From Octopus sinensis (taxonomy: Eukaryota): a stretch of 9,225 nucleotides of DNA. A program made the position numbers and the translations under genes. Shown here piece by piece: positions 348 through 9,095 of the stretch. How positions within the stretch are numbered: the stretch's first letter is position 1; each line of letters starts with the position of its first letter. The DNA lies in contig NW_021828001.1 of assembly GCF_006345805.1 (NCBI RefSeq), positions 1 to 9,225 on the forward strand, in the 5' to 3' direction. Below the pieces are notes generated by a model that was not told the DNA's origin, did not search any database, and saw nothing but the letters and a program-made list of their open reading frames with translations.

Positions 348-430
348 GTAGGTCCCGGTTGATTCGGGGTTAACCACAGTAAATAAGTACTCAATACATA
401 GCAGAGTAAATTAATTTATTATATAGAAGG

Positions 431-481
431 AGCTTCTACAGGACTAGAACTGTTTCATTCAAGAGAAATCTTCAGGAAGCT
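431..481 (-). ncRNA. Minimal hammerhead-like motif, probably degenerate
   Basis: Minus strand AGCUUC-CUGAAGA-U-UUC-UCUU-GAA-U-GAAA-CAGUUCUA-GUC-CUGUA-GAAGCU. Core at 469-475 and 453-456, GUC at 442-444, 6-bp AGCUUC/GAAGCU stem I offset by a 5-nt bulge. Confidence 0.5.
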
Positions 482-519
482 AGTTAAGCTATATATATAT
501 ATATATATATGTATGTATA

Positions 520-547
520 TTTAATCGGCAACAATCCGATTCATCGG
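520..547 (-). ncRNA. Decayed second hammerhead core in tandem with 585-686
   Basis: Minus strand CCGAUGA-AUCGG-AUUGUUG-CCGAU-UAAA. Perfect 5-bp stem II between two core boxes, each with one substitution; runs directly into the TA/TG microsatellite. Confidence 0.4.
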
Positions 548-584
548 TGGATCCTTAGTGCGGCATTAATAACACACAAATGGT

Positions 585-686
585 GTTTAAATTAGTGACA
601 GCTGTTTCGGTAGAACTTTATGCAATATAGTAGTAAAAGAATACATCGTATTATGTGATTCCACCATCTTCAGGCATAATTTAAAC
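585..686 (-). ncRNA. Minimal type I hammerhead ribozyme candidate (Penelope-like element pLTR type)
   Basis: Minus strand reads GUUUAAAUUA-UGC-CUGAAGA-U-GGUGGAA...UUCUACC-GAAA-CAGCUG-UC|AC-UAAUUUAAAC. Core CUGANGA at 667-673, GAAA at 605-608, 7-bp stem II base with one G-U, palindromic stem III ACAGCUGU, GUC triplet at 597-599, perfect 10-bp distal stem I (585-594 with 677-686). Confidence 0.75.
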
Positions 687-1096
687 GGCCAGCCGCGACA
701 TAGTTCACTACTTAGTTCAATTACTGTTATTTTCAAGACGAACAGTTCAATTTATAGGAGAGTTATTTAGGTGTTGTCTAAAACAGGAAATTAATAAAGA
801 AAGAAAACCATGGTCAGCGTAGAAATATAAGAATAATCTGAGATTGCCATTGAAATGTTGATTCCTAGAGATATAATAAATGGTCATCAAATACATAGCC
901 GACCTATTATAAAACACACACACACACGCGCGCGTATTTACAACACGCGAAAAGTCGAGAACGAAGCATATAGAAAGCATGGTAAACGAAAGAAATTATC
1001 AGAAACAAGTAAAAAGGTAAGAGCTATCTAGCTTAGACCTTAAATTATAAGGCTGGAAAAAATATTGATAAGTTAATAATGTATAGGCGCAATTTT

Positions 1097-1359
1097 TCAA
1101 TTCTTGAAAATGAACTTAAGCATATGTTTACAACTGCTGGAAATTTCAGACCTACAGATCACTAGTGAGTTAGGGATCTTAGACTTGAAAAGGATCTGCG
1201 CTCTTTCAGCTAAGCATAGCTTACATTATTAGATCCACTAACATAAGGTTTGGATTTTTCAATTATTTTCCATTTAATCACATGTGGTGTTGCATTAGAT
1301 TCCAACCTCCATACGTGGATAGCCAATTTAATAGATTTGCTTTTATCTTTATTTCTTAT
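1097..1359 (-). pseudogene. Decayed Penelope-like element, C-terminal part of GIY-YIG endonuclease
   Basis: Minus translation IRNKDKSKSIKLAIHVWRLESNATPHVIKWKIIEKSKPYVSGSN, then after a frameshift near 1226 CKLCLAERAQILFKSKIPNSLVICRSEISSSCKHMLKFIFKN*. Matches the PLE pattern LSxHIWxLK..IxWxI..PY..CxLCLxE..RSE..CxH..KF. Confidence 0.8.
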
Positions 1360-1637
1360 GCCATTTTCGTTTTCCGTTTTATTAACCCTCCACACTTTCT
1401 ATACGCTGCTTTCTCAGCTTTTCGCGTTTCTTCTCTCATTCAATTTTTAATTCAAGTGGTTTGTGCCTGATGACCGTGTTGGAATGCTACACATGTTATA
1501 ATTCGTTATTTGGCATGTTCTCAGCATAAGAAACTATTAGTAGCATATAAAAACATGTACTGTGTCTATTAAATAATATTTATCTCTCACCAGATGGAAT
1601 ACTTTTTTGTTGATCTTACCATCACGGAACAGTACAT

Positions 1638-3236: not shown

Positions 3237-4312
3237 TTAGGTTGTTTCACATGAAATGTCGTATTTTTAATTGTTATTTCAGTCATTTAAAAATTCAATT
3301 ATGTATATCTTGCATTTAGTCTTGACTCTTTTTCTTTCCCAATAATATTGGTATATAAAATTCGTATCCACCGACCTCATGAAAATGATAACCAAATTAT
3401 GTTGAGTGATTTTCTTGTATGAGTACAAACTCGATGGATTAAATGCTTTGGTTGAACAGAATCCGAGAACAAAGGTTCGAAAACTTTCATCAGAACCCCA
3501 AACATCTCGCACAACTAATTTTGGACACCTGTAAAAAAATTTGAAAAGTCAAGAAAACGGATATGTTTGTTCCACATCAAGTGAACGAGGTTCAAAAAAA
3601 CAAACTCCTCGAAGTGTGCTCCTTATTGCTTTCTCGATTGGAAAAAGACATTTTTTACATCAAATCCTTACCTGTGACGAGAAATGGATACGCTTTGACA
3701 ACACCGGGAGAATAGGACAGTGAATAGATGCAGGAGAGTCACCTAAACACTACCCATTGCACCCTAAAATGTTAGAGGTCATTGTATGATGGTCTGCGAA
3801 GGGAGTTATTCATTATTCATTTTTGCAACAAGGAAAAAAACCGTAACAGCAACATCGTGTTGCCAGGAAATTGATTGTATGCATGAGAATTTGAAAAAGA
3901 AGCAACCCAGACTAGTGAATAGAGATGGCCCAATTTTGCCCCACGAAAATGCACGCCCTCACACTCCTCAAGCTACGCTCCAAAAGTTGCAAAGCTTAAA
4001 TTATGAGATTTTGCAACATCCTCCTTATTCCCCTGACATCTCTCTATCTGATCATCACATATTTAAGCATTTTGATCTTTTTTATAAGCAACGAAACATT
4101 CTTAAATAGAGAAGAGGTAATAGAGAAGAGGACAGTTTATCACAGCAGAAGATTAACTTTTTTTTAAAGATGGAATATATGACATAGAGAAACGCTGGAT
4201 AAACATCACAAATGAACATGGATAATACTTTGATTAAATAAATCAATTCTTCTAACACTTGTGAAACATTTTCTTGTTACCTTTCAAATACATTTCATGA
4301 GAAACAACCTAA
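3237..4312 (+). mobile_element. Decayed mariner (Tc1/mariner, DD34D) DNA transposon, 1076 bp, with both TIRs
   Basis: Left TIR TTAGGTTGTTTCACATGAAATGT (3237-3259) matches the reverse complement of 4290-4312 at 22/23. TA dinucleotides at 3235-3236 and 4313-4314 within (TA)n. Encloses a transposase pseudogene. Confidence 0.95.
3379..4237 (+). pseudogene. Mariner transposase pseudogene (stops, frameshifts, N-terminal deletion)
   Basis: ATG 3379 MKMITKLC*VIFLYEYKL; FVPHQV at 3566-3583 (WVPHEL motif); ILTCDEKW (D at 3676); HENARPH (second D replaced by E, 3945); HPPYSPDISLSD (third D at 4050, 34 residues after the E); C-terminus FKDGIYDIEKRWINITNEHG*YFD* ending TAA 4235-4237. Confidence 0.95.
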
Positions 4313-4615: not shown

Positions 4616-4804
4616 TGTGTGTGTGTGTTTGTCCCTCCACTATCGCTTGGCAACCGATTTTGGTGTGTTTACGTCCACGTAACTGAGCAGTTCGGCAATA
4701 GAGACCGATAGAATAAGTACTAGGCTTAAAGAATAAGTCCTGGGGTTGATTTGTTCGACTAAAAGCTCCACTATGGCCGCAGTTAATGACTAAAACAAAT
4801 AAAA

Positions 4805-4857: not shown

Positions 4858-5003
4858 TATTCTTTTACTTACATTTTTAACTTGTTTCAGACATTTGACT
4901 GCGGCCATACTGGAGCATCACCTTTAGTCGAACAAATCGACTCCAGCACGAATTCTTTGTAAGCCTAGTACTTACTCTATCGGTCTCCATTGCCGAAATG
5001 CTA
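4858..5003 (-). mobile_element. SINE family A, 3' tail fragment, reverse orientation
   Basis: Reverse complement matches about 8006-8144 and 4686-4809; e.g. TTTGACTGCGGCCATACTGGAGCA and CCTTTAGTCGAACAAATCGAC on the plus strand. Confidence 0.9.
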
Positions 5004-6589: not shown

Positions 6590-6950
6590 TGTGCCTTCAG
6601 AAAAACACTAAACTCTCCAAACAAAACGCATCGCCAGTCTGACGAACTTCAATAAAGAAACGAAAACAGCAGCAGTTGGTACTGAAACGGTATATATTGG
6701 GCAAACGAGAACATCATCCAAACCGGGTGCACACAACACATAATCTTTCAAATCGAAACTGAGATTCAAATCAACATAATTGTCTTAATACATTTGGAAA
6801 CTCAAAAGTAGAAGCATTAACAATGTTGCAATAACATGGAGTATAAATAAAATGGCTTTATTATGCATGAATGAAGTATATAAATGTAACTCTTGTATTG
6901 CCGAAAAATATCAAATTATTGATAACATCTTAAATAGAAGACATGAAGCA
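6590..6950 (+). pseudogene. Decayed Penelope-like element GIY-YIG endonuclease fragment
   Basis: One frame from 6681: TETVYIGQTRTSSKPGAHNT*SFKSKLRFKST*LS*YIWKLKSRSINNVAITWSINKMALLCMNEVYKCNSCIAEKYQIIDNILNRRHE. YIG at 6693-6701; possible upstream CLQKN remnant at 6592. Missed by the ORF track because of three stops. Confidence 0.8.
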
Positions 6951-7040
6951 TCACTACATATACAGATAATATTTTGAGTAGATTTTGTTTTTGGATTTGG
7001 TTTGCAATATTCTTTATGTGAGTTTGTATGTTGAAGCACA

Positions 7041-7316
7041 TTCTGTTGTGTCTGGGGAGAGTCATTTTCTTTTTGAGCCTTATAATTTAGCACACTCACC
7101 AGTAAAATTTCCACTTATTCCTTATTTTTATTTTCCTAAAATTTCGTTGCGTCTTGCAACCTTTGCAACGACGACGAGTCAAAATTATTGAAAACGCTGC
7201 AAGAGGCAACGAAAAGTTTAGGAAAATAAAAATAAGGAATAAGTGGAAATTTTACTGATGAGTGTGTTAAATTATAAGGCACAAAAAGAAAATGACTTTC
7301 CCCAGACACAACAGAA
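7041..7316. repeat. Long inverted repeat: arms 7041-7168 and 7188-7316, 19-nt spacer
   Basis: Manual alignment of the left arm with the reverse complement of the right arm gives 9 substitutions and 1 indel in about 128 bp, only 4 of them in the outer 100 bp. The ORF track shows the same peptide (SVVSGESHFLF.PYNL.HS.VKFPLIPYFYFPK) on both strands. Confidence 0.95.
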
Positions 7317-7388: not shown

Positions 7389-7517
7389 ACCAAATTCACT
7401 CACAGGACTTTGGTCGGCCCGGGGCTATAATGAAGACTCTTGCCCAAGGTGCCATACCGTGGGACTGAACCCGGAACCATGTGGTTGAAAAACAAACTTC
7501 TTACCACTTAGCCATAC
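7389..7517 (-). mobile_element. SINE family A, 5' tRNA-derived head and CORE-like segment
   Basis: Minus strand has A-box TGGCTAAGTGG (7504-7514), B-box GGTTCAGTCC (7462-7471), then GGCACCTTGGGCAAG; matches 7776-7876 in reverse. Confidence 0.9.
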
Positions 7518-7773: not shown

Positions 7774-8144
7774 TTACCAACCACATGGTTCCGGGTTCAG
7801 TCCCACTGCGTGGCACCTTGGGCAAGTGTCTTCTACTACAGCCTCGGGCCGACAAGCATTGTGAGTGGATTTGGTAGACGGAAACTGAAAGTAGCCCGTC
7901 GTATATATGTATATGTATATATATATATTGTTGTGTGTGTGTCTGTGTTTGTTCCCCCTAACATCGCTTGACAACCGATGCTAGTGTGCTTACGCCCACG
8001 TAACTTAGCGGTTCGGCAAAATAGACCGATAGAATAAATACTAGGCTTACAAAGAATAAGTCCTGGGGTCGATTTGCTCGACTAAAGGTGGTGCTCCAGC
8101 ATGGCCGCAGTCAAATGACTGAAACCAGTAAAAGAGTATGAATA
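7773..8144 (+). mobile_element. SINE family A, near full-length (A-box missing), resembling octopus tRNA-derived CORE-type SINEs
   Basis: B-box GGTTCAGTCC 7794-7803, CORE-like CCTTGGGCAAG 7816-7826, internal (TA)/(TG) microsatellite at about 7901-7945, 3' domain shared with 4616-4809, A-rich tail. Confidence 0.9.
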
Positions 8145-8984: not shown

Positions 8985-9095
8985 CGACAGGCTTCTTTCA
9001 GTTTCCATCTGCCAAATCCATTCGCAAAACTCTGGTCGGCCCAAGGCTATAGTAGAAGACACTTGCCCAATGTGTCACGTAGTGTGACAGAACCC
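8983..9095 (-). mobile_element. SINE family A, internal fragment
   Basis: Reverse complement matches about 7793-7903 (GGGTTC..TTGGGCAAGTGTCTTCTACTATAGCCTTGGGCCGACC..GGATTTGGCAGATGGAAACTGAAAGAAGCCTGTCGTA). Confidence 0.9.

What the first reader, a model, noticed from the sequence alone, without database searches (positions are those of the whole stretch)
585..686. Near-canonical self-cleaving hammerhead ribozyme candidate on the minus strand
Seen: CUGAAGA and GAAA boxes, GUC triplet, stem II GGUGGAA/UUCUACC capping a ~43-nt insert, perfect 10-bp distal stem I, and a two-pair stem III with self-complementary loop (ACAGCUGU). Established: Penelope-like elements and retrozymes carry minimal type I hammerheads whose palindromic stem III favours dimeric cleavage. 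Inference: this copy may still cleave, between 597 and 596. Atypical points are an extra U after the core box and a C/A mismatch at the first stem I pair.
Basis: partly seen in the sequence, partly recalled or inferred. Interest (0 to 1): 0.75.

Follow-up and report, generated by a model that had tools for sequence, protein, structure and literature searches.

The report
Worn hammerhead of Hydra-type Penelope retroelement
The self-cutting RNA motif is really there, but it is one worn copy of an old, dispersed jumping-gene family of a known kind, and a mutation beside the cut site plus the lack of a partner copy nearby mean it likely no longer cuts in the cell.

Summary
The motif at 585-686 (-) is as described and is not chance: 6 of 2000 shuffles match the descriptor. 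It belongs to a decayed, dispersed family (74 model matches; 40 exact 18-mers against 0 control). The family is the roughly 700-nt 3' end of a Penelope-like element. In 12 of 17 extended loci it lies downstream of a GIY-YIG remnant on the same strand, and that remnant carries the Hydra-clade CxCX5C linker. All 13 paired copies are head-to-head. Stem I shows three compensatory differences between two subfamilies; stem II shows almost none.

Neither 'atypical' point is special. The extra U is the family norm (56 of 63) and a published feature of these ribozymes. The C.A mismatch is likely CpG decay of a C-G pair (C-G 30, C.A 18 of 63). The catalytic fold is predicted 5.8 kcal/mol above the best fold, and no second copy lies in the 9.2-kb contig. 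Cleavage was not tested.

The scan reported a Hydra-clade end from this genome before. Verdict: ordinary fossil, new family member of a known kind.

The parts
585..686 (-). Type I hammerhead motif; predicted cut between 597 and 596
   Evidence: sequence; model match 130 bits, by construction since the window is in the training set; descriptor chance 6 of 2000
667..673 (-). Core box C3-A9 (CUGAAGA); N7 is the only core site that is split evenly in the family (A 29, U 27 of 63)
666..666 (-). Extra U between A9 and G10.1; family norm
   Evidence: 56 of 63 copies
609..665 (-). Stem II (7 bp) with a 43-nt insert; the insert holds the hexamer site 622-617 (CAUAAA here, AAUAAA in 42 of 74 copies)
597..608 (-). 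G12-A15.1, palindromic stem III ACAGCUGU, GUC triplet
   Evidence: self-duplex -11.1 kcal/mol
596..596 (-). Position 1.1: A opposite C2.1, likely a CpG decay product
   Evidence: dinucleotide 17/1.1 is CG 24, CA 21, UG 12 of 63
521..905 (-). Fragment of the about 700-nt 3' end (pLTR-like unit) of an old Hydra-type Penelope-like family, cut short at both ends
487..520 (.). (TA)n-rich run at the 3' end of the fragment
914..935 (.). (CA)n/(CG)n run at the 5' end of the fragment; separates it from a different Hydra-type family

Best explanation
This is a decayed genomic copy of the hammerhead motif in the 3' end of an old Penelope-like retroelement family that likely belongs to the Hydra clade; the ancestral ribozyme likely cut element RNA as a dimer, and this lone copy likely does little or nothing now. 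Shown: the motif, its dispersed family, subfamily-level compensation in stem I, the same-strand GIY-YIG remnant upstream in other copies, head-to-head pairs, microsatellite ends, CpG-type decay. Inferred: in tandem element transcripts two ACAGCUGU palindromes would pair to build stem III and cut after GUC; short 5'-truncated reverse transcripts then landed in microsatellites and decayed neutrally. My odds: about 0.35 that an engineered tandem dimer of this exact copy shows some cleavage in vitro, about 0.1 that it cleaves in vivo.
For: Family: 41 of 43 non-self DNA matches cover the 3' half of the motif, 71-91% identity; 40 exact 18-mers against 0 reversed control; 74 model matches in 67 sources. 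Compensation: subfamilies defined outside stem I (25 and 38 copies) differ at 2.2-1.2 (G-C against A-U, Fisher p=4e-5), at the pair after the bulge (A-U against U-A, p=2e-5) and by one extra A-U pair on both strands (p=7e-6); 48 cells with both sides changed against 27.8+/-4.2 shuffled. Link to endonuclease: in 17 extended stretches around the old GIY-YIG remnant, 9 hold the ribozyme and 3 more hold unit fragments downstream on the same strand; 3 of the 8 picked without a prior unit hint do. Controls at E<0.01: 0 of 27 other GIY-YIG stretches, 0 of 18 loci of other, intact-frame Hydra-type families, 1 of 29 loci of the neighbouring family. The remnant reads CxCX5C, a YIG-like motif, CxxC before E and CxH after N, as described for Hydra (PMC8557442 section 11). 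13 of 13 two-copy loci diverge head-to-head. Decay: in the 25 rows found through the 3' half, the 5' core differs from the majority at 22 of 148 sites against 65 of 533 for conserved insert sites (by subtraction). Innermost stem I mismatches hurt the rate most (PMC8495972 passage). Catalytic fold -12.0 against best fold -17.8 kcal/mol.
Against: No reverse transcriptase remnant of this family was found in 28 stretches, and that profile also missed a known linker motif, so the test is weak. 5 of 17 endonuclease stretches have no unit, and 9 of the 17 were picked after a hint of linkage. The compensations probably reflect one event each, the alignment was fitted to the structure, and stem II shows almost no two-sided change. 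RNAalifold found no consensus structure. In the 38 rows found by similarity the core differs less (11 of 222; 5 of 147) than the insert (81 of 802), which I put down to how they were found but cannot exclude as constraint. The window copy is the only exact match to a strict full-core pattern. Clade assignment rests on motifs compared by eye with the paper's supplement, not on a tree. Folding energies ignore tertiary contacts.
Confidence: 0.9

Rival explanations
1. The copy is still an active ribozyme kept by the host, cutting a transcript that runs through it.
For: Only exact match to the strict full-core pattern in the genome; closest of 25 subfamily-A copies to the majority, 10.6%; no core change listed in 4 other runs that cover it.
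Against: It was the query, so closeness is expected. Six other copies of 63 keep the core and all four flanking pairs, which this one does not. Other alleles carry 2 changes inside 585-686, one breaking a stem I pair at 681, about the share expected from length. One model match only in the whole contig, so no dimer partner in cis. No host reading frame stands out.
Confidence: 0.05
2. It is a non-autonomous retrozyme or SINE-like unit of about 700 nt that spread on its own with a borrowed Penelope enzyme.
For: Most copies are unit-only; homology among hammerhead loci mostly stops about 340 nt upstream and 350 nt downstream; retrozymes are proposed to derive from pLTRs (bioRxiv 10.64898/2026.07.22.740005, abstract).
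Against: No tandem copies: 0 of 13 two-copy loci; the unit follows a GIY-YIG remnant in 12 of 17 stretches; 5' ends are scattered as in truncation.
Confidence: 0.04
3. Chance resemblance in AT-rich repeat DNA.
For: No Rfam match; weak folding z-score.
Against: 6 of 2000 shuffles; conserved family with compensation.
Confidence: 0.01

Closest known systems
Hydra-clade C-terminal EN+ Penelope-like elements and their hammerheads (Craig et al. 2021, PMC8557442; seen: abstract, passages, section 11, supplement parts 1, 2, 52 and search excerpts)
   Same: Sense-strand type I hammerhead near the 3' end, behind a GIY-YIG with CxCX5C linker; microsatellite ends; inverted truncated copies; stem III arms ACAG/CUGU also occur in listed Hydra-1_aMil, Penelope-1_NV and the two SK families.
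   Different: Loop II region is 43 nt against 3-10 nt in the listed Hydra ribozymes; stem III is a perfect 8-nt palindrome with no spacer; longer 3' region. It is not the listed octopus family Hydra-1_Obim, whose ribozyme differs in all stems.
[quoted passage not shown]
   Same: 7-8 bp helix II, extra nucleotide between 9 and 10.1, G10.1-C11.1, short palindromic helix III, mostly solo decayed copies, some pairs on opposite strands; low activity even as dimers.
   Different: Longer stem I (12 positions with a bulge) and long loop II insert.
Metazoan non-LTR retrozymes (PMC7229834, passages read)
   Same: Type I hammerhead with a two-pair stem III.
   Different: Those are 150-450 bp tandem repeats expressed as circles; this family is dispersed, head-to-head and tied to an endonuclease gene.

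Membership tests
Type I hammerhead ribozyme | Core C3UGANGA9, G12AAA15.1, U16.1 and H17 | tested here: met
   26 of 63 family copies keep the full core
Type I hammerhead ribozyme | Three helices, ends in stem I, with compensatory change | tested here: met
   stem I compensated between subfamilies; stem II paired 81-85% but with little two-sided change
Type I hammerhead ribozyme | Paired 1.1-2.1 next to the cut | tested here: not met
   C.A in this copy; C-G in 30 of 63 family copies
Type I hammerhead ribozyme | Self-cleavage | not testable with these tools
   only folding energies; 3 of 29 tail-found copies begin within 5 nt after the cut, a weak hint
Rfam hammerhead families | Match to a curated model | tested here: not met
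EN+ Penelope-like element | C-terminal GIY-YIG upstream of the ribozyme-bearing end | tested here: met
   other copies; Pfam alone did not recognise the decayed remnant; not present for this family in the window
EN+ Penelope-like element | Reverse transcriptase in the same frame | tested here: inconclusive
   none found for this family; the related intact 842-aa frame, 35-48% identical in the EN, has YRDD and DKT
EN+ Penelope-like element | Inverted 5'-truncated copies and alternative 3' ends | tested here: met
   13 of 13 pairs diverge; in 12 of 13 adjacent pairs with one long arm the other arm ends 8-42 model positions after the cut
Hydra clade | CxCX5C linker; CxxC and CxH around the conserved E and N | tested here: met
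   and the supplement excerpt, by eye
Hydra clade | Insertion into (TA)n | tested here: inconclusive
   ends abut (TA)n, (CA)n or (TG)n runs in most aligned copies, but the genome is rich in such runs and no control was made
Hydra clade | RT motifs RWK and DKT; placement in an RT tree | not tested
   no RT recovered for this family
Non-LTR retrozyme | Head-to-tail tandem units of 150-450 bp | tested here: not met

The most novel reading that the evidence does not exclude
Hydra-type elements of this genome have grown a 40-nt structured loop II that carries an AAUAAA signal 17-20 nt before the ribozyme cut, with a U/GU-rich run behind stem I, so the same site could be ended either by polyadenylation or by dimer self-cleavage: a switch between making mRNA and making a template for copying. 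Seen in this old family (42 of 74 copies) and in a young tandem family (L187, L195, L210, L211), but absent from other long-loop families in the same scan (for example L069, L120, L125, L167).
Probability: 0.07. Interest if true: 0.5.

Novelty: new member of a known kind. Interest (0 to 1): 0.14.

Why it matters
Little, as a single copy: hammerheads in Penelope-like ends are published and number in the thousands per genome. The family adds one more Hydra-type lineage in what is likely an octopus-like genome (recalled from its repeats, not tested), with an unusually long loop II. What these ribozymes do for the element is still open (PMC8557442 discussion passage; cleavage was not needed for insertion in vitro in PMC11167929, passage). 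The young tandem family found on the way (L210, L211) is the better object for that question than this worn copy.

Tried and rejected
Rfam: no hammerhead match. RNAalifold: no consensus fold on 31 decayed copies. Expression: no RNA holder listed; four runs guessed to be RNA gave no contig over 520-937; neither is evidence. Walking downstream with a query that held a TA run returned mostly microsatellites. The endonuclease remnant in the window at 945-1355 (-) first looked like the parent; rejected, because its family has its own ribozyme and matches the model in only 1 of 29 loci. The search for longer parent copies with the linker DNA found only itself. Pfam missed both the decayed endonuclease and the intact 842-aa frame. 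Pile-up of 5' ends at the cut: 3 of 29, inconclusive. Papers: searches for hammerhead + Penelope-like + octopus, octopus + hammerhead ribozyme, Penelope + cephalopod + ribozyme and hammerhead + Penelope-like + AATAAA (0 papers) showed no description of this family in their listings. Repbase, Dfam, subscription papers (including Lunse et al. on PLE dimers, not held) and bioRxiv supplements could not be seen and may hold it.

Full report
Observation. A structural descriptor finds this one site in the window and at least one site in 6 of 2000 shuffles. Rfam has no matching model, and the folding z-score is modest at -1.77. The window is a whole 9225-base contig of a 2.7-Gb genome.

A family. A DNA search with 525-900 gave 43 other matches at 71-91% identity, 41 of them covering the 3' half of the motif. 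The 18-mer that spans stem II, GAAA and stem III occurs 40 times, against 0 for the reversed control. A covariance model built from 26 copies found 74 matches in 67 sources. All counts are lower bounds; a few hundred copies is my rough estimate. I dropped 11 of the 74 rows in which one half of the motif was truncated or too diverged. The other 63 fall into two subfamilies of 25 and 38, assigned by sites outside stem I. They differ by three compensated changes in stem I: G-C against A-U at 2.2-1.2, A-U against U-A after the bulge, and one extra A-U pair. Each probably arose once, so this shows a few events, not many. Stem II is well paired but shows almost no two-sided change, and RNAalifold found no consensus fold. 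N7 is the only core position split evenly, as expected of a hammerhead.

The two 'atypical' points. The extra U is in 56 of 63 copies. [quoted passage not shown] At the cut, the dinucleotide reads CG in 24, CA in 21 and UG in 12 of 63 copies, the pattern of CpG decay, and C-G is the commonest 2.1-1.1 pair. The window's C.A is therefore likely damage acquired after insertion. A review states that mismatches in the innermost pairs of stems I and III lower the rate most (PMC8495972, passage).

The parent. The shared unit runs about 340 nt upstream and 350 nt downstream of the motif start and ends at microsatellites. At locus L108 a decayed frame with an NPP linker motif, CxCX5C and a GIY-YIG-type end lies upstream of the unit on the same strand, with an inverted copy on the other side. 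A search with that DNA gave 28 matches and a protein search gave more. Of 17 extended stretches, 9 hold the ribozyme and 3 hold unit fragments downstream on the same strand; 5 hold neither. Nine of the 17 were picked after a hint of linkage; 3 of the 8 others are linked. Controls gave 0 of 27 and 0 of 18 model matches at E<0.01 around other GIY-YIG loci. The motifs agree by eye with the Hydra clade (PMC8557442 section 11 and supplement). The published octopus family Hydra-1_Obim has a different ribozyme. No RT remnant of this family was recovered, so the clade rests on the endonuclease end. All 13 loci with two model matches are head-to-head. In 12 of 13 adjacent pairs with one long arm, the other arm ends 8-42 model positions after the cut, while long arms end about 240 positions after it; the long arm was mostly selected by the query. 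This fits two start sites of reverse transcription, as shown for another PLE (PMC11167929, passages); that step is inferred.

The window's neighbours. An endonuclease remnant at 945-1355 (-) belongs to another Hydra-type family, joined head-to-head to its own end piece, which carries a second hammerhead-like motif at about 1460-1550 (+). It is not the parent: the model matched 1 of 29 of its loci.

How it likely works. For the living element: the two-pair stem III is too weak alone. The catalytic fold lies 5.8 kcal/mol above the best fold, in which CUG of the core pairs with CAG of the palindrome. Two palindromes give a -11.1 kcal/mol duplex, about the cost of opening two copies, so a dimer in a tandem transcript is plausible but marginal. 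The young family scores no better in this calculation, so the numbers do not separate live from dead. Published PLE ribozymes cleave weakly even as dimers. For this copy: it is alone in its contig, truncated at both ends and mismatched at the cut. In rows found through the 3' half, the 5' core has decayed as fast as the insert (22 of 148 against 65 of 533, by subtraction). Rows found by similarity show a lower core rate, which I attribute to ascertainment but cannot prove. It is the only exact match to a strict full-core pattern, but six other copies keep the core and all four flanking pairs, which this one does not. Other alleles differ at two sites in the motif, one of them in stem I.

Verdict. 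A real type I hammerhead motif and a new family member of a known kind, likely a neutral fossil. Interest 0.14. The long loop II with an AAUAAA near the cut is the only lead beyond the known, and it is inconsistent across families. Earlier notes of this scan reached the same class for another piece of this genome; my reading was recorded before I saw them.

Noticed in passing
window 1460-1550 (+): Second hammerhead-like motif (C3 at 1467, G12 at 1530, GUA ending 1542) of a different, abundant Hydra-type family. The window copy and the two copies in L226 have a loop II about 25-29 nt longer than most of the other copies aligned.
   Followed up: partly
window 945-1355 (-) and 1364-1630 (+): Head-to-head insertion of that second family: GIY-YIG end on the minus strand joined to an inverted end piece.
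   Followed up: yes
window 6684-6956 (+): Third Hydra-type endonuclease remnant (profile E 8e-13).
   Followed up: no
L211 1450-9308 (+); L210 1588-4116 (+): Young tandem Hydra-type element with an intact 842-aa frame; its ends carry a ribozyme of the same build (extra base, about 40-nt loop II ending in AAUAAA, palindrome ACAUAUGU). Best target for an assay.
   Followed up: partly
L069, L073, L110, L120, L125, L167, L202: Several more hammerhead families with long loop II and 8-nt palindromic stem III in this genome.
   Followed up: no
window 3330-4230 (+): Decayed mariner-type transposase (PF01359, E 9e-5, below the curated cut-off).
   Followed up: partly
window 350-480: Very high-copy short repeat between TA runs (summed contig depth up to millions); not identified.
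   Followed up: no
window 4632-4800, 4876-5003, 7400-7500, 7780-8133, 8990-9080: Several pieces of abundant SINE-like repeats shared with most fetched loci.
   Followed up: no
window 7111-7246: Long inverted repeat, seen through weak Rfam hairpin matches; likely a small DNA-transposon remnant.
   Followed up: no
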